The notes under the pieces were generated by a model, which saw only the letters and a program-made list of their open reading frames with translations, was not told the origin of the DNA and searched no databases. This document shows, piece after piece, positions 7,405 through 50,250 of a stretch of 64,000 nt of DNA. A program made the translations under genes and the position numbers. Numbering within the stretch: position 1 is the first letter of the stretch; every line of letters starts with the position of its first letter. This stretch comes from an uncultured Thermoplasmata archaeon (GTDB lineage Archaea > Thermoplasmatota > Thermoplasmata > RBG-16-68-12): the NCBI GenBank assembly GCA_963768855.1, contig CAVYJM010000006.1, positions 928,001-992,000 of the forward strand, given 5' to 3'.

Positions 7405-8112
7405 TCACGCCATGATCCGCGTGACCTTGAACCCGTTGTCGAAGACGAGAGCGTGGTAGTCCGTGTCGTGACGCGTGCCGCGCATCTTGACGATCCGGAG
7501 CTGGCGCTGCATCCCGAACTCGCCCTGCCTCGCGAGCCGCAGGTGCACGACGCCGTCCGCGAGATACTCCTCCTTGTGCTTCGCGAAGACCTGGCTCGCG
7601 GTTGCGCCGTCGTCGCTCGGCAGCTCTCCGAGGAGGAACACGGTGCACTCCAGCCCCCGGAGCCACCGGATCAGGGCGAACAGCTCCCGCCTCACATCCT
7701 GGAACTTGGCGAGGATCTCGAGCGCGTCGAGCGAGTCGATGACGAGGAGGCGGTAGTCGAGGGATTTCCTCAGGCCCTTGGCGTACAGCTTGAAGAGGTC
7801 CATCCAAGGCTGGTCGACCGGGCCCGTGATTTTCTTCCGGAGCGCGGCGAGATCGAGCACGCTCAGGTTCCCTTCGACATCCGCGAGGCGGTAGCCCAGG
7901 CCTTCCGTGTGATCGAGGAGACTGGCGCGGCTCTGCTCGAGGGAGACGTACAGCCCCTTCACCCCGGTCCGTGCGTTCGCATGGAGCACGTGGTACGTCA
8001 GGGAGGTTTTCATCGTCCCGGGCGCGCCAGAGACGAGCACGACGCTCCCTTCCGGGATTCCCTTCCCGAGGATCTCGTCCAGGCCGTCGACGTACGTCTT
8101 GATGAAGTTCAT
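7405..8112 (-). CDS. KaiC/RAD55-like ATPase, single domain
   Basis: KTYVDGLDE, GAPGTMKTS, LVIDSLDALE, EEYLADGV, KMRGTRH. Confidence 0.9.
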   Translation of the reverse strand: MNFIKTYVDGLDEILGKGIPEGSVVLVSGAPGTMKTSLTYHVLHANARTGVKGLYVSLEQSRASLLDHTEGLGYRLADVEGNLSVLDLAALRKKITGPVDQPWMDLFKLYAKGLRKSLDYRLLVIDSLDALEILAKFQDVRRELFALIRWLRGLECTVFLLGELPSDDGATASQVFAKHKEEYLADGVVHLRLARQGEFGMQRQLRIVKMRGTRHDTDYHALVFDNGFKVTRIMA

Positions 8113-9866
8113 GGTTGCTCCCCCGCGATCGCTTCGAGACGACGACGGATGGATTCGACCTGACCCTGGATCCGCTGTTTCTCTTGGGGCACGTCCACGA
8201 TTTCCGCCATGGCCACGAGATCGACCGCCGCGCGGTCCGCGAGTCGGGCAACGTCCCCGGGCCGCAGATCCTCCGGTCTCTTCCCCAGCTTTGACAGTTC
8301 GGACCGGAGGACGCCTTCGCCCGCCTCGCCGAGCTGTTCGACGAAGATGGAGCGGGCGCGCTCGAAGAGGGATTCCCGTTCGCTCAGGTCGCTCGCCACG
8401 GCGAAGAGCTCGTCCATCTCCTTGCCCTTCCAGTAGTCCGCCGCGGTCACCAGGATGCCCCGGTCCGCCTCGGATGCGCGGCGGGAGGGCCAGTCGCCCT
8501 CCGCGAGGTCTTGCGGGCTGCGCTCGGCGAACGCCTGCAGCGCGGCGCTGGCCGCGGTCGCCTGGACGCGGAGGCCCGAGCGGGCCGCATCGTCCGCGGC
8601 GGGGTCCCCGAGTTCGCGGACAGCTCGATCCAGAAAGCGCAGGAACGGGTCCGTGTCGCTGAGGGTGAGGTCCTCCCGGCGGAGGGAACGGGAACGGCAG
8701 AACGCCTCGAGGAGCTGACGGGCGCCCGGACCAAAGGACTGCGCGAGGACGGCCTCCATCTCCTCGGACGGGTCGGGCAGGGTCCACCAGGCCAATCGGT
8801 GCCCCTTCAGGTCCTCTTTCTCCCGGGTCGTCAGGCGGGATGCGGACACCGCGAGGCTGCACCGGGTGTCCCGGCACACGCTCCGGAGCCGCAGGAGGAT
8901 TGCCTGGGTCCGCGGCCACCCCGACATCATCGCGATGTCGGCCGTGTCGACGAGGACCGCGAGGCCGCCCGACGATCGGGTCCCGAATTCCGCGACCGTG
9001 CCGAGGGTGCGGGGAGCAGCGTGGGGGGTCGAAGAGATCGTGGCGAGCCCCGGGGGCGGATCCAGTGCCGTGATGGCAGGGCTTCCCCGGCCCACGACGA
9101 GCGTGGCCTGGCCGCGCCGGGCGGCCAGTCCCGCCAGGTGGAGCGCGTACTTGGGACGCGCCTCGTCCAGAACGACGGTGAGGCCCGGTTCGATTTCTCC
9201 CTGAACGGTCGGCCCCCGGCTCCGCCGCGGCCGCATTCCCGGGAACGGTTCGGAGTGGAACAGGACGTAGGCGAACAGGGCCACCGCTACCGGCGCCGCG
9301 ACGTTCGACCCCGCGGACTGGAGGATGCCGAGATCCTGGAACTCGAGGGCGTAGATCGGACCTCCGATGATGAGGGCGGCGACAGCGAACGCGAGCCAGA
9401 ACGAGTCGGCCGCGAACAGGGGGCTCACCATCCTCTCGTAGACGGGCTCCGCGAGGGCGACGCCCAGGCAGACGATCAGGAACGCGCCCAGGAGGTTCGG
9501 CTCATAGGCGTGCGCGACGGCCCAGTCCGCGCTCGGGGTGAGCACGACGACGATCGGGACGAGGGCCAGGAGTGCGAACACGGCGGGCCGGCGGCGCGGC
9601 ACGGTCTCTCCGTGGATTAGGGTGAGGACCAAGATCGCCGTGAGGGGATGGGCGAGGACCAGGGTCCACAGGACCGCCCCCTCCCACGCCGGCGCGAGGA
9701 AGCCTTCCGAGGTCCCGATGAAGGCCGCGCCGTTCACGATGAGCGTGAGGACGAGGGCCGCGAACGTGGCCTGCAGCCACGGGCGTCTCCCCCGGACGAC
9801 GACGAGCGCTAAGAGCCAGGCCTCCACCGCGAGGCCCGCGCCGACGGCGAGGCTGTATGCGATCAC
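8109..9866 (-). CDS. 7TM membrane sensor fused to a DUF835-like domain and a duplicated helical C-terminal module
   Basis: Seven hydrophobic helices, then LTVVLDEARPKYAL...AVLVDTADIAMMSGW (degenerate RecA-fold, DUF835-like); GTG start overlaps the upstream stop (GTGA). Confidence 0.7.
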   Translation of the reverse strand: MIAYSLAVGAGLAVEAWLLALVVVRGRRPWLQATFAALVLTLIVNGAAFIGTSEGFLAPAWEGAVLWTLVLAHPLTAILVLTLIHGETVPRRRPAVFALLALVPIVVVLTPSADWAVAHAYEPNLLGAFLIVCLGVALAEPVYERMVSPLFAADSFWLAFAVAALIIGGPIYALEFQDLGILQSAGSNVAAPVAVALFAYVLFHSEPFPGMRPRRSRGPTVQGEIEPGLTVVLDEARPKYALHLAGLAARRGQATLVVGRGSPAITALDPPPGLATISSTPHAAPRTLGTVAEFGTRSSGGLAVLVDTADIAMMSGWPRTQAILLRLRSVCRDTRCSLAVSASRLTTREKEDLKGHRLAWWTLPDPSEEMEAVLAQSFGPGARQLLEAFCRSRSLRREDLTLSDTDPFLRFLDRAVRELGDPAADDAARSGLRVQATAASAALQAFAERSPQDLAEGDWPSRRASEADRGILVTAADYWKGKEMDELFAVASDLSERESLFERARSIFVEQLGEAGEGVLRSELSKLGKRPEDLRPGDVARLADRAAVDLVAMAEIVDVPQEKQRIQGQVESIRRRLEAIAGEQP

Positions 9867-10393
9867 GCCGCGCCTCCTAGCGGGCGGACCTTGAGCACCG
9901 CAACGAGGTCCCGGGGCCGCCACTTCCAGCGGGCGCTCCCCGACTCCCGCATCTCCGGAGCCGAGTGGAACCCGGCCTTGCGGGCCTCCTCGTCCGTCAC
10001 GTCCGCGAGGAGCTTGCGCGTGCCGTCGACCACGAGCAGTCGGCCGAACGGCCGGCCCGTGTCGTACTTCGCCCAGACCACCTGGCCCACGAGGGGCAGC
10101 GAGACGTCGCCAATCGGGCGGATCATGAGCTCCGCGCCGCCCCGGAGGAGCCGGTCCCCTTCATCGAGGGTGAACGCCAGCTCCCCGTGAGGCCGCCGGC
10201 GGGGCAGCTCCCCGGACAGCGCGGCGCGGAACCCGAGGATCACGAGGAACGTGACGAGCCCGCCGAGCAGGAGGAGGTTCGTGAAGCCGATCTGGTAGAA
10301 GTTGCGGTGCTCCCAGAACCCGAAGACGAGGACGACGGAGAGGAGGAAGAGCAGGCCGGCGCGGGCGAGCAGGGTCACGAACCGTCGGGGCAT
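9863..10393 (-). CDS. Membrane-anchored ASCH/PUA-like domain protein
   Basis: Two N-terminal TM helices, then ...VVWAKYDTGRPFGRLLVV...LADVTDEEARKAGF, resembling ASCH. Confidence 0.6.
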   Translation of the reverse strand: MPRRFVTLLARAGLLFLLSVVLVFGFWEHRNFYQIGFTNLLLLGGLVTFLVILGFRAALSGELPRRRPHGELAFTLDEGDRLLRGGAELMIRPIGDVSLPLVGQVVWAKYDTGRPFGRLLVVDGTRKLLADVTDEEARKAGFHSAPEMRESGSARWKWRPRDLVAVLKVRPLGGAA

Positions 10394-10396
10394 GGC

Positions 10397-11140
10397 TCAC
10401 CCGATCGCTCGAGCGACCTCGAACCGGCCGTTCTCGAAGAGGAGCGTGTGGTCCTCGCTGTCCTGGTTCACGCTCCGCATCTTCGTGCACTGGATCCGGC
10501 GCTGGAACGACGTCTCCGTGACCGGGGCCATGCGCAGCCGCAAGATGCCGTCCGCGAGGAACTCCTCCTCGAGGACGTTCCCGCCCGCGCCGAGCCCCGG
10601 CTCCTCGGAGACGAGGAGGCTCGTGACCCCGAGGTCCCGGAGCCACTCGAAGAAGGCGAACGTCTCCGTCCGGCGGTCCTTGAACTCGAGGACGAGTTCG
10701 AGCGCGTCCCAGGAGTCGATCGCGAGGAGGCGGAAATCCTGGCGGCGCCGCAGATCGAGGATCTTCCCCTGGAGGACCGTGAGGAGGGCCTCGCCCTGCC
10801 GCAGGTCCGGACCCGCCATCTCGCCGACCTTCGCCGCCATTTCCTCGAGGTACTCGCGGCCGCGGCTCAGGTCGAGGATCGGCAGAGAATCGGAAACCTG
10901 CGTCGCGCGCAGTCCGAGCCCCGCGACGTGCTCGAGGAGGCTCGCGGCGCTCTGCTCCAGGGTCACGTAGAGCCCGGGCGTCCCCTGGAGGGCGTTGTGG
11001 TACAGGATGTAGTAGGCGAGGGAGGACTTCATCGTCCCGCTCGCGCCCCGCAGGAGGAGCACGTGCCCCTCGGGCACGCCGCCCCGGAGGACCTCCTCGT
11101 CGAAGCCTCGGATGAACGTCTTCACGGGGGTGCGGGCCAT
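10397..11140 (-). CDS. KaiC/RAD55-like ATPase, single domain
   Basis: KTFIRGFDE, GASGTMKSS, LAIDSWDALE, EEFLADGI, KMRS. Confidence 0.9.
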   Translation of the reverse strand: MARTPVKTFIRGFDEEVLRGGVPEGHVLLLRGASGTMKSSLAYYILYHNALQGTPGLYVTLEQSAASLLEHVAGLGLRATQVSDSLPILDLSRGREYLEEMAAKVGEMAGPDLRQGEALLTVLQGKILDLRRRQDFRLLAIDSWDALELVLEFKDRRTETFAFFEWLRDLGVTSLLVSEEPGLGAGGNVLEEEFLADGILRLRMAPVTETSFQRRIQCTKMRSVNQDSEDHTLLFENGRFEVARAIG

Positions 11141-11148
11141 CGGACACC

Positions 11149-12858
11149 TCACGGGCTCATCGCGCGGGTCACCTTGAACCGCCCCTCGTCCAGGACCAGG
11201 GCCATGTAGCCCGTCTCATGCTTCGTGCCGCGCATCTTGACGACGCGCAGCCGGCGCTGTAGCTCCACATCGGAGACGAGGTGCTGCCGCAGATGGAGGA
11301 CGCCGTCCGCGAGGAAGTCCTCGTCCCAGCGGCCTTGCATCACGTGGCCCCCGATGACCCAGTCGGGCCGCTCCGTGACCACGAAGCTCGTGACGTCCAG
11401 GTCCCGGAGCCACTCGAACAGACGGAAGATCTCGCGGCGGCGGTCCTTGAACTTCGCCAAGACCTCGAGCGCCTCGAGGGAATCGATCACGACGAGGTCG
11501 AGCCCGCGCTGGGCCTTGACCGCCTGGAGGGCGTGCTGGAACGTCTCGACCCAGTCCTTCCGTTCCTCGAGCAGCCCCTTCGCCGCGCGGGGATCCATGA
11601 CGACGAGGGATCCGCTGGTGACGTGGAGGGGCAGGCCGATGGAGCCCATCTGCTTCAGCAGGCTCGACGTCCGCTCCTCGAAGCTCAGGTAGAGGCAGTG
11701 CAGGCCCGCGTGCGCGGCGTTCTGCGCGAGCACGGAGAAGCTCAACGAGGACTTCATCGTCCCCGGCGCCCCGGAGACGAGCACGATGTGGCCCCAGGGG
11801 ATGCCGCCGCCGAGGGTCTCGTCGAGCCCGTCGACAAACGTGCGGACCCGGGCCGGGTGGGCCTTCGTCTCCTCCGCCGGTTTCGGTGGAGGCGGAGCGG
11901 GCGGGGCGGACAGGTCGGCGAAGTCGGGGAAGTCCTCGTCCTCGGGAGGGGCCACGGTCGCGGGAGGAGTCACCGGCGCCACGGGCTCCGGCTCGGGTTC
12001 CGCCTCGGCGGGTTCCGGGGCCGCTTCCGGGGCGCGCGTGGCGAGCTTCTCGTACCGCACGCGGGCCGTCCGGTGGTCGGGCCGGAGCTCCAGGGCTTTC
12101 TGGAAGCTCTTCGTGGCGTCGACCGGACGGTCGAGGGCCTCGAGGACGATGCCTCGTTCGGACCAGGCCTCCGTCAGCGCGGGGTTCGCCTGGACCGTGC
12201 GGTCGAGCACCTCGAGCGCGCCCGGCAGGTCCTCCATGGACCGGAGCGTGCGGGCGAGCCCGAGCCATGCGCTGTCGTTCGGCGGATCGAGCTCGATGGC
12301 GCGGAGATAACCGACAGCGGCCTTGTAGGGCCTCTCGAGGCGCAGGTACGCCTCCCCCAGGAGGGTCCACGAGCGGGGATCGCCGTCCTCCTTCGCGATG
12401 GCCTTGAGGAGATGCTCGATGGCAGCGTCGAAGTGACGCTCGCGGAACGCTTGGGTCGCCGCCTCGAGCTGCCGCGTCACGGCCTGCTTGGCCTCGTTGC
12501 TCGGGGCCTTCCGGGGGCGATCGCTCGTGTAGGGTTTGAATCGCTGGCCCGAGGCGGATGCGCGCTGGGCAATCCGATCCTTGAGTGCAGCGACGGGATC
12601 GCTTCGAGCCGGGGTACCGGGGGCAGGGAGAGCCGCGGCCTCCTCGGGCCGCGGCTCCGGCGGTACCGTCTGTGCGCGGCGGGGCCTCTTGACAACCGCG
12701 CTGTAGACCTCGCTGCCCATGACACGCTGCAGGTGGACGGGCTGTTCCGGAGGAGGTGAAGCCGTCTCGGCCGGGAGCTCGTGGCCGCAGATCCGGCAGC
12801 GGGCCTGGCCCGGTTCGTTCGTCGAGTAGCAGGCAGGGCACCGCACGGTTGGCGTCAT
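11149..12858 (-). CDS. Zn-ribbon + TPR + KaiC/RAD55-like ATPase fusion
   Basis: CPAC...CRIC, about four TPR-like repeats (WTLLGEAYL, AWLGLAR, AWSERG), Pro-rich linkers, GAPGTMKSS, VIDS, KMRGTKH. Confidence 0.88.
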   Translation of the reverse strand: MTPTVRCPACYSTNEPGQARCRICGHELPAETASPPPEQPVHLQRVMGSEVYSAVVKRPRRAQTVPPEPRPEEAAALPAPGTPARSDPVAALKDRIAQRASASGQRFKPYTSDRPRKAPSNEAKQAVTRQLEAATQAFRERHFDAAIEHLLKAIAKEDGDPRSWTLLGEAYLRLERPYKAAVGYLRAIELDPPNDSAWLGLARTLRSMEDLPGALEVLDRTVQANPALTEAWSERGIVLEALDRPVDATKSFQKALELRPDHRTARVRYEKLATRAPEAAPEPAEAEPEPEPVAPVTPPATVAPPEDEDFPDFADLSAPPAPPPPKPAEETKAHPARVRTFVDGLDETLGGGIPWGHIVLVSGAPGTMKSSLSFSVLAQNAAHAGLHCLYLSFEERTSSLLKQMGSIGLPLHVTSGSLVVMDPRAAKGLLEERKDWVETFQHALQAVKAQRGLDLVVIDSLEALEVLAKFKDRRREIFRLFEWLRDLDVTSFVVTERPDWVIGGHVMQGRWDEDFLADGVLHLRQHLVSDVELQRRLRVVKMRGTKHETGYMALVLDEGRFKVTRAMSP

Positions 12859-13580
12859 GGGCTGATCACCGAGGTGACCTGGAACCGTCCGTCCTCGAAC
12901 ACGAGGGCGTGGAACCCAGTCTTGTGGTTCGAGCCGCGCATCTTCACGACCTGCATGCGCCGCTGGATTTCGACGTCCGTAATGGGATGCATCTTGAGCT
13001 CGATGATGCCGTCCGCGAGGAACGTCTCGTCCTTCCGGGGCGGGGCGGACTCGAGCCCGAAGAAGCTGGCCTCGGGGGACGCCTCCGTCAGGACGAGCGT
13101 CGTGGCGCCGAAGTCCCGTAGCCACTCGAAGAAGTGGAACAGCTCGGTCCGGCGGTCCTCGAACTTCGCGAGAACCTCGAGCGCCTCTAGGGAGTCGAGG
13201 ACGACGAGGTCGACGCCATCGATCTCCTTCGTCGTCGTCAGGCTCCGCCGCAGGAACTCAATCCAGGGCTTCGTCGCGCTCTTGCCGATCTCCTTCTGGA
13301 TCGTGCCCACGTCGAGGAGATGCAAGTCCCCACGCACGGCCTCCGTGTTGAAGCCCATCGAGTCCATCTGTGCGAGGAGGCTGCGACGCGTCTGCTCTAG
13401 GGTGACGTACAGCCCCTTCGCACCTCGCTTCTCCACGTTGTTCTGGAGGATCGCATAGCTCAGCGTCGATTTCATCGTGCCCGGAAGCCCGGAGACGAGG
13501 ATGACGTGGCCTGCGGGCAGGCCGCCGCCGAGCGCCTCGTCCAAGCCATCCACGAACGTCGGGATCTTCTTGATTTCCAT
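12855..13580 (-). CDS. KaiC/RAD55-like ATPase, single domain
   Basis: KIPTFVDGLDE, GLPGTMKST, VVLDSLEALE, DETFLADGI, KMRGSNH. Confidence 0.9.
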   Translation of the reverse strand: MEIKKIPTFVDGLDEALGGGLPAGHVILVSGLPGTMKSTLSYAILQNNVEKRGAKGLYVTLEQTRRSLLAQMDSMGFNTEAVRGDLHLLDVGTIQKEIGKSATKPWIEFLRRSLTTTKEIDGVDLVVLDSLEALEVLAKFEDRRTELFHFFEWLRDFGATTLVLTEASPEASFFGLESAPPRKDETFLADGIIELKMHPITDVEIQRRMQVVKMRGSNHKTGFHALVFEDGRFQVTSVISP

Positions 13581-13611: not shown

Positions 13612-13995
13612 TCATGCCATAGCCTCCTGGTGGAGGATCACGTCCACCAGCCGGGCGGTTTTTTCCATGGCCATCAGCACGAGCCCGAGGTTTGCGTCTT
13701 TGTAGACTAAGGCGACGAGGAGGGCCTCCTCCCCCGCGCCGAGGCTCAGGAGCTTGCCCTCATCCGACTCGATGATGGCGCGCTCGAAGTGGCCCTGGGA
13801 GAGTTGGATCGTGGCCATCTCCGAAGTGCCGACGATCGCGGCCGTCATCGCGGCTACGATCCTCGGGTCCACGCCGTCCGGGAGCGTGTGGGTGATCACG
13901 AGCCCGTCCCTCCGCACGACCGCGGCGGCCTTGATGTCCGTGACGTGCGCGAGGTCGTCCATCGCGGCCTCGAGACGCTGCCACACGTCGGTCAC
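13612..13995 (-). CDS. Roadblock/LC7 (MglB-like) protein
   Basis: AAAVVRRDGLVI...VAAMTAAIVG...GEEALL...ANLGLV. Confidence 0.92.
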   Translation of the reverse strand: MTDVWQRLEAAMDDLAHVTDIKAAAVVRRDGLVITHTLPDGVDPRIVAAMTAAIVGTSEMATIQLSQGHFERAIIESDEGKLLSLGAGEEALLVALVYKDANLGLVLMAMEKTARLVDVILHQEAMA

Positions 13996-14387
13996 GTCCC
14001 GACCTCCTGCGCGGCCGTTTCCATGAGGTCGGCGATCGACTGGACGGCCTTGCCCACGCTGAGGAGGACGAGGCCCATGTTGGCGTCCGTCCGGACCATC
14101 GTGATGAGGATGCCTTCCTCGCCTGCGCCCGTGGCGAGCATCTTGACCTTCTCGCTGTCCACAATCGACTGGAAGAACGGGCCGAACCCCATCTCCCCGG
14201 CAGCCATCTCCGAGGTGCCGACGATTGCGGCGGCCATGGCGGCGATCCGCTTCGGGTCCATGCTCTTCGGGAGGAGGTGGGCGATCAGCAAGCCGTCGCG
14301 CCGCGCCAAGGCGACGGCGACGACGTCCGGGATGCGGCGGAGCTCCTGGAGGACGCCGATGAGGCGGGCGTGGAGCGAGTCGACCAT
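13992..14387 (-). CDS. Roadblock/LC7 (MglB-like) protein
   Basis: VALARRDGLLI...IAAMAAAIVG...GEEGIL...ANMGLV; paralog of the adjacent gene. Confidence 0.92.
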   Translation of the reverse strand: MVDSLHARLIGVLQELRRIPDVVAVALARRDGLLIAHLLPKSMDPKRIAAMAAAIVGTSEMAAGEMGFGPFFQSIVDSEKVKMLATGAGEEGILITMVRTDANMGLVLLSVGKAVQSIADLMETAAQEVGT

Positions 14388-14388
14388 C

Positions 14389-15564
14389 TCACCTCACCCC
14401 GATGATCATCTCGGCGAGGATCAGGAGCGCGTCGCGCACGCCCGAGTTCGCCGTCGCCACGGTGGCCAAGATGGGCGTCTCGTCGGGCAGCTCCATCTTC
14501 CGTGCAATCACGTCCGGCTTCAGGGCGCCCGGGAGGTCCGACTTGTTGGCCAAGACAACGTAAGGGATCCGTGGCCCGATCAGCTCGAGCATGTACTTCG
14601 CGCGCTCGAAGTCCTCCGGCCGAGTCGCATCGACCACGAGCAGGACGCCGCTGACCTCCCGCGCGAAGATCCGGAAGATGAACTCAAAGCGTTCCTGGCC
14701 GGGCGTACCGAAGACCTCGGCCTCGATGCCCGTGATGTTCACGCTGCCGTAGTCGAAGGCGACGGTTGTCCCCATGCGGTCGATGCTGATCGACTTCTCG
14801 CAGAGGACCCTGACCACCGTCGACTTGCCCGCATTGAAAGGACCCGTGACGAGGATCCGCGGGAAGTACACCGTCACACCGACGAGATCCTTGAAGGTGT
14901 ATGGAATCCAATTCGTGCGGATCCCGTCTTCCTGCATCTGCGAGATGCGCATCGAGTTGCGGAGGATTCCTCCGCGCATGGAGGACTGGAACTCGATGAT
15001 GAAGTCCGACATCGCGCGGATCGTGCCGAGGTCGCGCTCGTGGTAGGTCCAGTTGATGAAGAGGAAGCAGGTGACGCTGTGGGCGGCTTCCGAGGCCTCG
15101 ATGATCCGTCGCCACTCCGAGAGCACCGCTTCCTTGGGGAATCGGTCCGAGAGGAACTCCATGGAGTCGATGACGATCCGGGCGGGCCGCTCCGCCTCGA
15201 TGGCGTCGACGATGACATCCGTGATGCCGATTAGGCTGCCGATGTCCTTGACGCTGTACTTCTCCATGCTCGGGACGAGGAGCTGGCTTGAGATCGCGTC
15301 GACGATGACGAGGTTCTCCTGCGAGAACTTGCCGAAGCGGCCGAGCTCCGCGCGAGCGAGGCTCGGCGCCCGGAAGAAGTCCACATACAGGGTCGTCTCG
15401 CCCGTCTTGGCGCCCTCGACCGCGAAGTTCTCCGCGAAGAGCCGCTTCTCCGTCGGCTTGTCACTGAACAGGAGGAGCGTGGATGGCCGAGGGAATCCGC
15501 CATTGAGTCGCTCGTCGAGGATCTGGATCCCGGTCTTGACCCGAGTCGTGTCGGGATCGCCCAT
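14389..15564 (-). CDS. Degenerate KaiC-like domain fused to an MglA-like small GTPase
   Basis: N-terminal KTGIQILDERLNGGFP with Walker A lost (SDKPTEK); C-terminal GPFNAGKST, TTVAFDYG, FGTPGQERF, NKSD. Confidence 0.88.
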   Translation of the reverse strand: MGDPDTTRVKTGIQILDERLNGGFPRPSTLLLFSDKPTEKRLFAENFAVEGAKTGETTLYVDFFRAPSLARAELGRFGKFSQENLVIVDAISSQLLVPSMEKYSVKDIGSLIGITDVIVDAIEAERPARIVIDSMEFLSDRFPKEAVLSEWRRIIEASEAAHSVTCFLFINWTYHERDLGTIRAMSDFIIEFQSSMRGGILRNSMRISQMQEDGIRTNWIPYTFKDLVGVTVYFPRILVTGPFNAGKSTVVRVLCEKSISIDRMGTTVAFDYGSVNITGIEAEVFGTPGQERFEFIFRIFAREVSGVLLVVDATRPEDFERAKYMLELIGPRIPYVVLANKSDLPGALKPDVIARKMELPDETPILATVATANSGVRDALLILAEMIIGVR

Positions 15565-16229
15565 CAGAGGCCTCCCGTGACCACCGGCATCTGGACGAAC
15601 GGGTGCCAGGTGCTGTCGACCTGGAATCCCCTCATGTGGTGCACGCGCACCTCGTGGTCCATTGTGTCGGTGAAGCGCATCTCCACGACGCCGTCGACGA
15701 GGGACCGCAGGAGGTTCATCGTCATCTGCTCGTGGACGCCTTCGTGGACGGCGTACATGATGAAGCCCATGTTCATCTTCGCGCGGCTCGTGACGATCTG
15801 GAAGAACTTGGCAATCGCTTGCGTGGAGTTGTGAAGGAACAGGGTCGAGATCGTGTAGAAGTAGATCCGGACGGGCGTCCCGAGCTCCTGGGCCGCCTTG
15901 CTCATCGCCATCCCGATGCCCTCGAGGTTGCTGAAGCTCGACACGAGGAACGTCTTCTTGCCGGCGGGAACCTCGGGCCGCTCCGAGGCGGTCGCGCTGT
16001 AGCAGTCGACGAAGGCGAAGCTCCGGCCCTCGTACTGGTCCAGGTCGAGCTTGAGGGCCTTGGCCCGCGCGCGGATCTCGGACGGGTGGAGGTCGAGCGT
16101 CACGAAGACGACGCGCTCGCCCGCCCGCAGCGCCTCCCGCACCTGGGCGATCATGTACTCGAACTTGCCCACGCCGGGCGGGCCGCCGAGTAGGATCGCG
16201 TAGTTCGTCGGGAACCGCGGGTCACCCAT
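15564..16229 (-). CDS. KaiC/RAD55-like protein with degenerate Walker motifs
   Basis: GPPGVGKF, FVTLD, FVDCYS, SNLEGI, YFYTISTL, LVDGVVEM, HHMRG. Confidence 0.8.
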   Translation of the reverse strand: MGDPRFPTNYAILLGGPPGVGKFEYMIAQVREALRAGERVVFVTLDLHPSEIRARAKALKLDLDQYEGRSFAFVDCYSATASERPEVPAGKKTFLVSSFSNLEGIGMAMSKAAQELGTPVRIYFYTISTLFLHNSTQAIAKFFQIVTSRAKMNMGFIMYAVHEGVHEQMTMNLLRSLVDGVVEMRFTDTMDHEVRVHHMRGFQVDSTWHPFVQMPVVTGGL

Positions 16230-18567: not shown

Positions 18568-18630
18568 CCGCGCTGGTCAAGCCCTCGCGACCATCCGCTA
18601 CAAATAGGTCCGGCGCCAGACGTGTCCTCC

Positions 18631-19185
18631 ATGCCTTCGCCTCCCCCCGGAACCTCGCAGGGCGACTCGACCCCCCTCCCTATCACCTACGATTCGGAGA
18701 CGGGACGGATCTCCCTCCTGGGCGAGCCCGCCTGGTTCATGTCCCCGGAGTTCTACCTGGACCTCCAGATCCAACTCGAGACGCTGTCCGGGAAGGCCGC
18801 GCGGGGCATCCTCTACCGCGTGTCCTTCAGCGCGGGCTCCCGCACGGCGAAGCGGCTCGCGGGACCCCTGACCCCGCGGGACGACGTCCACGAACGGATG
18901 CAACAGATCTCCGATTACTCGTCCCTCACGGGGTACGGACGGTACGCCTACAAGGCCACGAACCCCGCGAACGCGGAGACCGAGTGGACGATCGCGGAGA
19001 GCCTGATCGCCTCGCTTCACCCGCCGGGTCGGGATTCCGTGTGCCACATGTACGCGGGCTTCCTCGCGGGGTGGCTCACGGTCCTCTTCGACCGTCCGGT
19101 CGAGTGCGTGGAGGCCGAGTGCCGCGCGAAGGGTGACTCCCGCTGCCTGTTTCGGACGAAGCCGACGCGCGTGGCGCCGGTCTAG
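18631..19185 (+). CDS. V4R-domain protein
   Basis: GYGR...CHMYAGFLAGWL...VECVEAECRAKGDSRCLF, the V4R Cys pattern. Confidence 0.88.
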   Translation: MPSPPPGTSQGDSTPLPITYDSETGRISLLGEPAWFMSPEFYLDLQIQLETLSGKAARGILYRVSFSAGSRTAKRLAGPLTPRDDVHERMQQISDYSSLTGYGRYAYKATNPANAETEWTIAESLIASLHPPGRDSVCHMYAGFLAGWLTVLFDRPVECVEAECRAKGDSRCLFRTKPTRVAPV

Positions 19186-19256: not shown

Positions 19257-19745
19257 ATGCCCTCCGCCGAAGAGGAAATCGCCGCAGGCGAGCAGGCCCT
19301 GAGCACCCTCGACTACGACGCCGCCTACAAGCACTTTGACAAGGCGTGCAAGGCGGACCCGAAGAACTCCGTCGCGTTCTTCGGTAAGGCGGAGTCCGCG
19401 CTCGGCGTGCCCAAGGCGGAAGCGGAGGAGATCCTCGGCCTGTACAAGAAGGCGATCGAGCTGGATCCGGAGAACCCCGGATACCACGACGCCCTCGCGT
19501 CGTTCTGCGTCGACCTCGGTCGGTTCAACGAGGCGGAGGAGCACTACAACAAGGCCGCCGCCCTCGACGAGGACAACGCCCCGTTCTACTGGTCCGAGTT
19601 CGCGATCAACTACGCCCGCAAGGCGCCCGTGGCGATGCAGCAGTTCCTTGATGACAAGACGCGGGACATGATCCGCGCGAAGGCCCTCACGTACGCGCTC
19701 AAGGCGCTCGACATCGGGAAGGACGACGCGAAGCGCGTCCTGTGA
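19257..19745 (+). CDS. TPR-repeat protein
   Basis: AYKHFDKACKADPKNS, YKKAIELDPENPGY, YNKAAALDEDNA. Confidence 0.85.
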   Translation: MPSAEEEIAAGEQALSTLDYDAAYKHFDKACKADPKNSVAFFGKAESALGVPKAEAEEILGLYKKAIELDPENPGYHDALASFCVDLGRFNEAEEHYNKAAALDEDNAPFYWSEFAINYARKAPVAMQQFLDDKTRDMIRAKALTYALKALDIGKDDAKRVL

Positions 19746-47007: not shown

Positions 47008-47033
47008 CCAACGCACCACCGACGGGTGCTAGT

Positions 47034-50242
<3,209 letters not shown>

Positions 50243-50250
50243 TGACCTGT

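What the first reader, a model, noticed from the sequence alone, without database searches (positions are those of the whole stretch)
13612..15564. MglA-like GTPase fused to a P-loop-dead KaiC domain, followed by a Roadblock paralog pair
The 391-aa protein has an N-terminal KaiC-like domain whose Walker A is replaced by SDKPTEK (Walker B RIVIDS is kept). Its C-terminal GTPase has intact G1 GPFNAGKST, switch-I TTVAFDYG, an MglA-type G3 (GTPGQ instead of DxxG) and G4 NKSD. Two similar Roadblock genes follow, translationally coupled. In MglA/MglB the Roadblock dimer is the GAP; a heterodimer here would parallel eukaryotic Ragulator-type Roadblock pairs. The fusion physically links the KaiC layer to the GTPase layer.
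Basis: partly seen in the sequence, partly recalled or inferred. Interest (0 to 1): 0.75.

Follow-up and report, generated by a model that had tools for sequence, protein, structure and literature searches.

The report
Dead-KaiC/MglA-type GTPase fusion with Roadblock pair
An uncultivated Thermoplasmata archaeon encodes a small G-protein switch welded to a catalytically dead KaiC-type ATPase domain, followed by two Roadblock regulator genes; this is a local variant of a gene module that is widespread in archaea and that I found no experimental study of.

Summary
Gene 14389-15564 (-) encodes 391 aa. Residues 1-233 are a KaiC/RecA-fold domain with Walker A FSDKPTEKR, no catalytic Glu, and Walker B RIVIDS kept. 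Residues 234-391 are an intact small GTPase (GPFNAGKS, GTT, GTPGQ, NKSD). Two Roadblock genes, 41% identical to each other, follow with start and stop codons overlapping or abutting.

The fusion is not an assembly artefact. About 100 clusters at 50% identity carry the full-length form, and it occurs across Euryarchaeota and DPANN. Contigs from three other studies bridge the domain junction without indels.

By published motif criteria the GTPase belongs to MglA groups 2-5 (archaeal type). It is not M. xanthus-type MglA, Arf or Rag.

The conserved core is a degenerate KaiC-like gene, the fusion, and a Roadblock gene. The Roadblock pair is a duplication confined to this order, and one-GTPase/two-MglB systems are already known in bacteria. 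In six related fusions without an adjacent Roadblock gene the GTPase motifs have decayed, in at least two independent events.

Best reading: an MglA/MglB-type GTP switch mounted on a pseudo-KaiC scaffold inside a ten-gene KaiC-rich operon. Binding and GAP activity are untested.

This scan has found the same module before on other DNA, with notes from at least 20 genomes.

The parts
15564..16229 (-). Upstream degenerate KaiC-like gene (221 aa; matches KaiC and DUF7504). Walker A is GPPGVGKF with no Ser/Thr after the Lys. There is no catalytic Glu (VTLD) and no Walker B Asp (IYFYTIS). Its stop overlaps the fusion's start.
   Evidence: An orthologue sits directly upstream of the fusion in type-A loci across archaea.
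14866..15564 (-). Inactivated KaiC-like (iKaiC) domain of the fusion, residues 1-233. Walker A remnant FSDKPTEKR (15442-15468), YVDFF in place of the catalytic Glu, Walker B RIVIDS (15163-15180).
   Evidence: Pfam KaiC on 9-233. AlphaFold2 model matches PH0284 (2dr3), TM 0.80-0.83 by target length. Walker A is degenerate in all 45 fusions examined.
14389..14865 (-). MglA groups 2-5 type small GTPase domain, residues 234-391 plus the stop codon. G1 GPFNAGKS, G2 GTT, G3 GTPGQ, G4 NKSD. It joins the KaiC domain with no linker.
   Evidence: Motif criteria from PMC4316618. Domain model pLDDT 86.8; best structural matches are MglA 6h17, 3t12 and 3t1q at Z 21.0-21.4, tied with Arf/Arl.
13992..14387 (-). 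Roadblock/LC7 (MglB-like) paralogue 1, 131 aa, with the RRDGL motif. Its start lies 1 nt after the fusion's stop.
13612..13995 (-). Roadblock/LC7 (MglB-like) paralogue 2, 127 aa, with the RRDGL motif. Its GTG start overlaps the stop of paralogue 1 (GTGA).
12855..13580 (-). Canonical single-domain KaiC-like ATPase. Walker A GLPGTMKST, catalytic Glu in VTLEQT, Walker B VVLDS. It is the next gene in the operon.
7405..12858 (-). Rest of the co-directional operon (context). Zn-ribbon-TPR-KaiC (11149-12858), KaiC-like (10397-11152), unknown 176 aa (9863-10393), unknown 585 aa (8109-9866), KaiC-like (7405-8112).
   Evidence: The lead came from scan note e1-5476011.

Best explanation
This is a lineage-specific version of a widespread archaeal three-gene module: a degenerate KaiC-like protein, a dead-KaiC domain fused to an MglA-type GTPase, and an MglB-like Roadblock protein.

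Proposed mechanism:
- The C-terminal domain is a working GTP/GDP switch of the MglA groups 2-5 kind. It has a catalytic Gln in GTPGQ and no intrinsic Arg finger.
- A Roadblock dimer docks on the switch regions and controls GTP hydrolysis and/or nucleotide exchange, as MglB does for MglA. Here an old duplication may have turned the homodimer into a fixed heterodimer of the two paralogues.
- The N-terminal RecA-fold domain cannot hydrolyse ATP. It serves as a rigid adaptor, with no linker, that places the switch on or in oligomers formed with the neighbouring degenerate KaiC-like protein and the four canonical KaiC-like ATPases of the operon. The ATPase state of the KaiC layer and the GTP state of the switch are thereby coupled.

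Shown: the domain anatomy, motif status, conservation, synteny, and the association between Roadblock loss and GTPase decay.

Inferred: all binding, GAP/GEF activity, oligomer formation, direction of signalling, and the output.
For: 1. The fusion is real and old.
- 278 homologues.
- About 100 full-length clusters at 50% identity.
- Full-length matches in Thermoplasmata, Methanosarcinales/ANME-2, Methanoperedens, Methanocellales, Archaeoglobaceae, Methanobacteriaceae, Halobacteriota, Hadarchaeota, and Aenigm-, Alti-, Woese-, Parv- and Nanoarchaeota.
- In a quick FastTree run, read without branch support, the fused GTPase domains group together.
- Contigs from three other studies cross the domain junction without indels. 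20 of 30 listed substitutions are at third codon positions.

2. The GTPase carries the published diagnostic features of MglA groups 2-5: TT in G2, GTPGQ in G3, and MglB within four genes (PMC4316618). Its nearest stand-alone relatives outside the fusion clade are actinobacterial 'ATP/GTP-binding proteins' and methanogen GTP-binding proteins. The bacterial ones have a Roadblock gene upstream.

3. Synteny. The order is either KaiC-like / fusion / Roadblock, or Roadblock / fusion / KaiC-like, in nearly all 45 loci.

4. Co-variation.
- All 6 fusions with decayed G1-G4 motifs lack an adjacent Roadblock gene, although Roadblock genes exist elsewhere in those genomes.
- 36 of 39 fusions with intact motifs have one adjacent.
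- The tree requires at least two independent events.

5. The N domain has the KaiC/PH0284 fold. Its Walker A is dead in all 45 fusions.

6. Both Roadblock paralogues keep the Asp-Gly pair that PMC4316618 notes for MglB partners of groups 2-5. First-position and second-position copies mostly fall into separate groups across families. This suggests an old, retained duplication.
Against: - There is no biochemical or genetic evidence for any member of this family.
- By sequence, the GTPase profile scores Arf, Arl and Rab structures above bacterial MglA. NCBIfam gives no MglA hit at E <= 0.01. Structural Z-scores for MglA and Arf are tied. The MglA assignment therefore rests on motifs, neighbours and gene context.
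- One intact fusion (Methanocellales, L043) has no Roadblock gene within 6 kb.
- The co-variation rests on only two independent events.
- The Roadblock tree is a quick FastTree run on about 115 columns, and one first-position copy (L029) sits outside its group.
- The genome has 5 more Roadblock genes over the Pfam cut-off and about 18 Ras-family GTPases, so cross-talk is possible.
- No output component is identified.
Confidence: 0.6

Rival explanations
1. The dead KaiC domain is only an oligomerisation handle. It makes homo-oligomers (for example RecA-type rings) that display several GTPase domains. The module works as an MglA/MglB switch without functional coupling to the canonical KaiC-like ATPases, which are merely operon neighbours in this lineage.
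For: The widely conserved core holds only degenerate KaiC-like domains (the upstream gene and the fusion). The four canonical KaiC-like genes are not part of it in many archaeal loci. PH0284-type single-domain KaiC homologues are the best fold match.
Against: A KaiC-like gene sits next to the fusion in almost every locus. In type-B loci it lies downstream, and its motifs were not examined. The window's operon packs five further KaiC-fold genes onto one strand with overlapping or abutting genes.
Confidence: 0.2
2. The Roadblock proteins are not GAPs of the fused GTPase. They act as a platform, an exchange factor or a sensor, or they serve other small GTPases of the cell, for example the Ras-like paralogues.
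For: In loci L022 and L033 the Roadblock gene lies next to a Ras-family GTPase gene, which in turn lies upstream of the fusion. The genome has about 18 Ras-family GTPases and 7 Roadblock genes over the Pfam cut-off. PMC10933270 describes eukaryotic Roadblock dimers as platforms and exchange factors.
Against: Roadblock lies directly beside the fusion, with no other GTPase in between, in most loci. The fused GTPase's catalytic motifs decay exactly where the adjacent Roadblock gene is missing.
Confidence: 0.13
3. The GTPase is functionally an Arf/Arl-like membrane switch rather than an MglA-like one.
For: Arl3, Arl8 and Arf1 are the top sequence matches among solved structures. Arf is the best Pfam GTPase model. 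PMC4316618 itself notes that archaeal Group 4 MglA is close to Arf/Sar.
Against: G3 is GTPGQ, not DxxGQ. The N terminus is occupied by the KaiC-like domain, so no free N-terminal helix is possible (own knowledge of the Arf family). Roadblock coupling is the MglA hallmark.
Confidence: 0.05
4. The fusion is an assembly or gene-calling artefact that joins two separate genes.
For: Some database entries of 609-643 aa and a 'split' locus (L037) show that calling errors do occur in this family.
Against: One open frame in hundreds of independent assemblies. Contigs from three other studies bridge the junction with no indel. Pfam matches end at residue 233 and begin at 236, with an invariant Pro235.
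Confidence: 0.01

Closest known systems
MglA/MglB switch, MglA groups 2-5 including archaeal Group 4 (Wuichet and Sogaard-Andersen 2015, PMC4316618; called 'MglA2-5' in later work)
   Same: Ras-superfamily fold. G2 has TT and no Arg finger. G3 is GTPGQ without Asp. A Roadblock (MglB) gene with the Asp-Gly pair lies within four genes. There is no bacterial G1-G2 insertion in the window's protein.
   Different: That survey covered single-domain GTPases and reported no conserved neighbours for Group 4. Here the GTPase is fused without a linker to a dead KaiC-like domain and always sits beside KaiC-like genes.
MglA/MglB of Myxococcus xanthus and Thermus thermophilus (Group 1; PDB 6h17, 3t12, 3t1q, 6izw)
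   Same: Best structural matches to the GTPase domain model (Z 21.0-21.4, 156-157 of 158 residues aligned). A Roadblock dimer is the regulator.
   Different: Group 1 has TVPGQ and an intrinsic Arg finger in switch I. Both are absent here. Sequence similarity is low: 22-26% identity in the structural alignments, and no NCBIfam MglA hit.
Actinobacterial conservon CvnA-D (Group 2 MglA)
   Same: Nearest named bacterial relatives of the GTPase domain ('ATP/GTP-binding protein', 33-38% identity), with a Roadblock gene upstream. GTPGQ-type G3.
   Different: No histidine kinase and no CvnC-type gene are present in the window's operon. KaiC-like genes take their place in the operon.
Archaeal KaiC-like ATPases and inactivated KaiC (iKaiC) domains proposed as signalling hubs (Makarova, Galperin, Koonin 2017, as cited in PMC5847659)
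   Same: Single RecA/KaiC-fold domains, some with inactivated ATPase sites, clustered with sensor and adaptor domains. The window's operon has six KaiC-fold domains.
   Different: I could not read that paper (not held), so I cannot say whether it lists a GTPase fusion. No paper in the searchable library describes one.
Eukaryotic Rag GTPases with Ragulator (LAMTOR Roadblock heterodimers)
   Same: Roadblock-fold pairs are used as platforms for small GTPases. A paralogue pair could form a heterodimer.
   Different: There is no Gtr1/RagA signature in the fused GTPase. The Roadblock domains are separate genes, not C-terminal domains of the GTPase. The pair arose by a local duplication. This is an analogy only.

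Membership tests
MglA groups 2-5 (PMC4316618) | Ras-superfamily small-GTPase domain with G1-G4 motifs | tested here: met
   Pfam Arf, Ras and MMR_HSR1 on 236-384. GPFNAGKS, GTT, GTPGQ and NKSD read from the DNA. Domain model pLDDT 86.8.
MglA groups 2-5 (PMC4316618) | G3 lacks the Asp and reads GTPGQ; G2 has Thr-Thr instead of the Group 1 Arg-Thr | tested here: met
   G286-T-P-G-Q290 and T266-T267 are invariant in the family alignment. Present in 39 of 45 fusions. Criteria quoted.
MglA groups 2-5 (PMC4316618) | Coupled MglB (Roadblock) gene within four genes | tested here: met
   Two Robl_LC7 genes lie directly downstream. A Roadblock gene is adjacent in 36 of 39 fusions with intact motifs.
MglA groups 2-5 (PMC4316618) | Single-domain protein of about 160-200 aa | tested here: not met
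   391 aa with an N-terminal KaiC-fold domain.
MglA groups 2-5 (PMC4316618) | GTP binding and MglB-stimulated hydrolysis | not testable with these tools
   Needs biochemistry.
MglA Group 1 (M. xanthus / T. thermophilus type) | TVPGQ G3 and an intrinsic Arg finger next to the G2 Thr | tested here: not met
   G3 is GTPGQ and G2 is GTT. Criteria.
MglB / Roadblock-LC7 | Robl_LC7 domain with the conserved Asp-Gly pair noted for partners of groups 2-5 | tested here: met
   PF03259 E 9.5e-12 and 1.8e-14. RRDGL in both paralogues. The Gly is invariant in alignments A3 and A4.
MglB / Roadblock-LC7 | Forms a dimer that binds the GTPase and acts as GAP | not testable with these tools
   Needs purified proteins: pull-down, size-exclusion chromatography and GTPase assays.
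KaiC-family ATPase (active) | Walker A GxxxxGK[ST], catalytic Glu after strand 2, Walker B Asp | tested here: not met
   FSDKPTEKR lines up with GLPGTMKST of the neighbouring canonical paralogue. YVDFF replaces VTLEQT. Only Walker B RIVIDS is kept.
Inactivated KaiC-like domain (iKaiC, as named in PMC5847659) | KaiC/RecA fold with lost ATPase motifs | tested here: met
   PF06745 E 1.4e-17. Fold match to PH0284 (2dr3), TM 0.80-0.83. Walker A is dead in 45 of 45 fusions.
Rag/Gtr GTPase with Ragulator | Gtr1/RagA G domain with a fused C-terminal Roadblock domain and a heterodimer of two Rags | tested here: not met
   No Gtr1_RagA hit for the fusion at E <= 0.01. The Roadblock domains are separate genes.
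Arf family | DxxGQ-type G3 and a free N-terminal amphipathic helix (own knowledge of the family) | tested here: not met
   G3 is GTPGQ. The G domain starts at residue 234 of a fusion. Sequence similarity to Arf/Arl is nevertheless the highest among solved structures.
Actinobacterial conservon (CvnA-D) | Histidine kinase CvnA and CvnC encoded with the Roadblock and GTPase genes | tested here: not met
   No kinase domain in any of the operon's genes by Pfam.

The most novel reading that the evidence does not exclude
The triad of degenerate KaiC-like protein, dead-KaiC/MglA-type fusion and Roadblock protein is an ancient, pan-archaeal G-protein signalling device. In it a GTP switch is read out through, or controls, KaiC-type ring assemblies: a coupled ATP/GTP two-nucleotide switch with no bacterial or eukaryotic counterpart. 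In this order the Roadblock duplication has hard-wired the asymmetry that MglB homodimers show when they bind MglA, which would be an independent archaeal route to the Roadblock heterodimer platforms of eukaryotes.
Probability: 0.2. Interest if true: 0.8.

Novelty: new variant of a known kind. Interest (0 to 1): 0.55.

Why it matters
Archaeal signal transduction is poorly understood, and KaiC-like ATPases have been proposed as its hubs. The published survey of prokaryotic small GTPases found no conserved gene context for archaeal MglA-like GTPases (PMC4316618).

This locus and its relatives show a conserved physical and genomic link between three things: an MglA-type switch, its Roadblock regulator, and KaiC-fold proteins. 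That gives a concrete module, testable in vitro, for how GTPase and KaiC signalling could be joined in archaea.

Two comparisons come ready-made. The window's order has a Roadblock pair where other archaea have a single copy. Its sister families have lost the adjacent Roadblock gene and let the GTPase site decay.

Tried and rejected
- **Complex prediction** of Roadblock 1 + Roadblock 2 + GTPase domain, each given as an alignment: no verdict (score 0.18, mark 0.32). It counts neither for nor against binding.
- **RNA evidence:** no RNA holder listed among public runs. Only DNA contigs could be laid.
- **Literature:** Makarova et al. 2017 (mBio, KaiC hubs) is not held. Full-text searches for KaiC with Roadblock, GTPase, small GTPase or fusion found no description of the fusion. 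The two papers that hold all four terms do not treat it.
- **Longer forms:** the 609-643 aa entries are miscalled N-terminal extensions of Arg/Pro/Gly-rich out-of-frame sequence.
- **'Split' form in L037:** the GTPase ORF starts inside the last KaiC strands and in another frame. It looks like a frameshift, not an ancestral unfused state. I did not check this further.
- **L036:** it does carry a stand-alone GTPase nested inside the fusion clade.
- **Classifying the GTPase by similarity alone fails.** PDB sequence searches rank Arf, Arl and Rab first. The structural ranking puts MglA first, but within 1 Z unit of Arf. NCBIfam gives no MglA hit at E <= 0.01.
- **Whole-fusion Foldseek search:** the listed matches are all KaiC-family chains and say nothing about the GTPase.
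- **Rag/Ragulator, Arf, conservon and active-KaiC membership:** considered and rejected on defining features.
Full report
**Observation**

The minus strand between 16229 and 13612 carries four tightly packed genes.
- A 221-aa KaiC-like protein at 15564-16229.
- The 391-aa protein of the finding at 14389-15564.
- Two Roadblock/LC7 genes at 13992-14387 and 13612-13995.

Pfam places KaiC (PF06745) on residues 9-233 of the 391-aa protein and small-GTPase models (Arf, Ras, MMR_HSR1, Roc) on 236-384. Both small proteins match Robl_LC7. NCBIfam gives weak MglB hits for both.

The junctions are TGATG, TGA-g-ATG and GTGA, so the genes overlap or abut.

**The fusion is real**

- The word-indexed search returned 278 homologues. 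The best 120 listed are nearly all about 390-395 aa with the same Pfam pair. The sources that name them call them 'Thermoplasmata archaeon' or 'Euryarchaeota archaeon RBG'.
- A profile search of 1.84 billion cluster representatives found about 100 clusters at 50% identity that match the whole profile.
- A scan of one genome per species found full-length matches in Methanomassiliicoccales, Methanosarcinales/ANME-2, Methanoperedens, Methanocellales, Archaeoglobaceae, Methanobacteriaceae, Halobacteriota and Hadarchaeota, and in the DPANN groups Aenigm-, Alti-, Woese-, Parv- and Nanoarchaeota.
- Within the window's class, the full-length fusion is found in most genomes of its own order and in a few other families.
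- Metagenome contigs from three other studies cross the domain junction (about 14865) with no insertion or deletion. Of the 30 listed substitutions inside the gene, 20 fall on third codon positions.
- Entries of 609-643 aa are miscalled N-terminal extensions.

**The N-terminal domain**

The AlphaFold2 model (mean pLDDT 84.3) matches the single-domain KaiC homologue PH0284 (2dr3), with TM 0.80-0.83 by target length.

Continuing the alignment with the canonical neighbour without gaps puts FSDKPTEKR opposite GLPGTMKST. The lysine survives, but the glycines and the Ser/Thr are gone. The catalytic Glu (VTLEQT in the neighbour) is YVDFF here. Walker B (RIVIDS) is kept in this order.

In all 45 fusions examined the Walker A is degenerate, in different ways in different clades. 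Walker B is also lost in many.

This is what PMC5847659 calls an inactivated KaiC-like domain, citing Makarova et al. 2017. I could not read that paper.

The KaiC match ends at residue 233 and the GTPase match begins at 236. Pro235 is invariant. There is no flexible linker.

**The GTPase domain**

Wuichet and Sogaard-Andersen (PMC4316618) define MglA groups 2-5 by three features:
- GTPGQ in G3, which lacks the otherwise near-universal Asp.
- Thr-Thr in G2, in place of the Group 1 Arg finger.
- An MglB gene within four genes.

They also state that archaeal members lack the bacterial G1-G2 insertion. The window's protein meets all of these.

The nearest stand-alone relatives outside the fusion clade are actinobacterial 'ATP/GTP-binding proteins' and methanogen 'GTP-binding proteins'. 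The bacterial ones have a Roadblock gene 0.5-2 kb upstream, as in the conservon.

Similarity alone does not settle the family.
- PDB sequence searches rank Arl3, Arl8, Arf1 and Rabs first.
- The structural comparison of the domain model (pLDDT 86.8) ranks M. xanthus and T. thermophilus MglA first (Z 21.0-21.4, 156-157 of 158 residues aligned). Arf/Arl are within 1 Z unit.

It is not Group 1 MglA (no TVPGQ, no Arg finger), not Arf (no Asp in G3, no free N terminus) and not Rag (no Gtr1_RagA hit). In a quick tree the fused GTPase domains group together, apart from bacterial groups and from stand-alone Methanomicrobiales GTPases. That fits a single origin of the fusion, although I did not read branch supports.

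**Roadblock genes and synteny**

I built my own HMMs and mapped KaiC-like, GTPase and Roadblock domains in 47 loci. Two layouts dominate:
- Type A: KaiC-like, fusion, Roadblock. This is the window's type.
- Type B: Roadblock, fusion, KaiC-like.

The upstream KaiC-like gene is itself degenerate. In this order it has GPPGVGK followed by Phe, Leu or Met, no catalytic Glu and no Walker B Asp. It matches DUF7504.

Two Roadblock genes after the fusion occur only in some families of the window's order (the loci of its own genus, plus L029 and L026/L039). A Halobacteriota MAG also carries extra copies. Other loci have one.

In a quick tree, first-position and second-position copies from different families mostly fall into separate groups. 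This suggests one old duplication retained in three families. Support is weak, and one copy sits outside its group.

One-GTPase/two-MglB systems are already reported in bacteria. PMC11016934 describes an MglB homodimer acting asymmetrically on MglA. A fixed heterodimer would be a natural outcome, but it is untested.

**Co-variation**

Six fusions from sister families of the same order (L024, L025, L027, L028, L031, L032) have lost the G2 threonines and the G3 Gln, and most have lost further motifs. None has an adjacent Roadblock gene. Five of the six have a Ras-family GTPase gene beside them instead.

Roadblock genes do exist elsewhere in those genomes, but on other contigs.

Of the 39 fusions with intact motifs, 36 have an adjacent Roadblock gene. 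Two more sit at contig ends. One (L043) truly lacks it.

A maximum-likelihood tree needs at least two independent changes. This is modest but direct comparative support that the Roadblock proteins serve the catalytic cycle of the fused GTPase.

**Operon context in the window**

Downstream on the same strand lie:
- A canonical KaiC-like ATPase (12855-13580).
- A Zn-ribbon-TPR-KaiC protein (11149-12858).
- Another KaiC-like ATPase (10397-11152).
- Two proteins with no significant Pfam match (9863-10393 and 8109-9866). The second has a weak NitrOD2 hit, E 0.051.
- A further KaiC-like ATPase (7405-8112).

The scan's first-stage notes on this stretch gave me the lead to the ten-gene extent. I checked only the Pfam content.

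**Mechanism**

The best-supported reading is an MglA/MglB-type GTP switch carried on a pseudo-ATPase scaffold.
- The GTPase domain cycles.
- The Roadblock dimer, possibly a heterodimer here, regulates hydrolysis and/or exchange.
- The dead KaiC domain and the upstream degenerate KaiC-like protein tie the switch to KaiC-type oligomers.

The anatomy, conservation, synteny and co-variation are shown. Every interaction and activity is inferred. The one complex-prediction job gave no verdict.

**Novelty and scoring**

I found no publication describing this fusion in the searchable library. The key survey of archaeal KaiC-like proteins could not be read. The published GTPase survey reported no conserved neighbours for archaeal Group 4 MglA.

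The scan itself has met this module before on other DNA. Notes from at least 20 genomes hold all six search words, and the follow-up agents whose notes were shown reached similar conclusions. My analysis was done before I read those notes, and it agrees.

What this window adds:
- The retained Roadblock paralogue pair.
- The KaiC-rich ten-gene operon.
- The link between Roadblock loss and GTPase decay in sister families.
- A genome with about 18 further Ras-family GTPases.

I class it as a new variant of a known kind (an MglA/MglB switch) and score interest at 0.55.

Noticed in passing
own genome, e.g. G000:C7:106450-108233, C12:41751-42891, C6:749275-749769, C6:1000241-1000738 (about 8 kb beyond the window's end): The 2.87-Mb genome holds about 18 stand-alone Ras-family GTPase genes (PF00071, 79-135 bits, full-length matches), some in tandem arrays. 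It also has 7 Roadblock genes over the Pfam cut-off. This is a striking small-GTPase expansion for a non-Asgard archaeon.
   Followed up: partly
L024:5346-5840, L025:5445-5933, L027:5433-5924, L031:7317-7811, L032:7280-7774; also L022:4936-5412, L029:9649-10149, L030:7902-8390: A Ras-family GTPase gene (PF00071, E 1e-30 to 1e-40 in the four copies checked by Pfam) sits beside the fusion in related loci. It takes the place of the Roadblock gene exactly where the fused GTPase has decayed. This may be a pseudo-GTPase/GTPase pair.
   Followed up: partly
window 47029-50247 (-), intron 48071-48303: The archaeal 23S rRNA gene carries a group I intron (RF00028, 71 bits). GC drops to about 0.59-0.60 over the rRNA region.
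   Followed up: no
window 8109-9866 (-): A 585-aa operon member has no significant Pfam match. [quoted passage not shown] A first-stage note calls this protein a 7TM sensor. I did not check the membrane topology.
   Followed up: no
window 11149-12858 (-): A Zn-ribbon, TPR repeats and a canonical KaiC-like domain in one protein. It is a likely adaptor within the operon.
   Followed up: partly
window 18622-19185 (+) and 19257-19745 (+): A V4R-domain protein (PF02830, E 1.9e-15) and a small TPR protein lie beyond the divergent Phe-tRNA synthetase alpha gene. Another scan note reports V4R proteins inside a related operon.
   Followed up: no
L036:6001-6510: A stand-alone 169-aa GTPase that nests inside the fusion clade. 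It sits next to an integrase gene and is followed by two KaiC-like genes and a TPR gene. This may be a secondary fission or a truncation at an integration site.
   Followed up: no
window 1-64000: ARAGORN finds no tRNA gene in the whole 64 kb.
   Followed up: no
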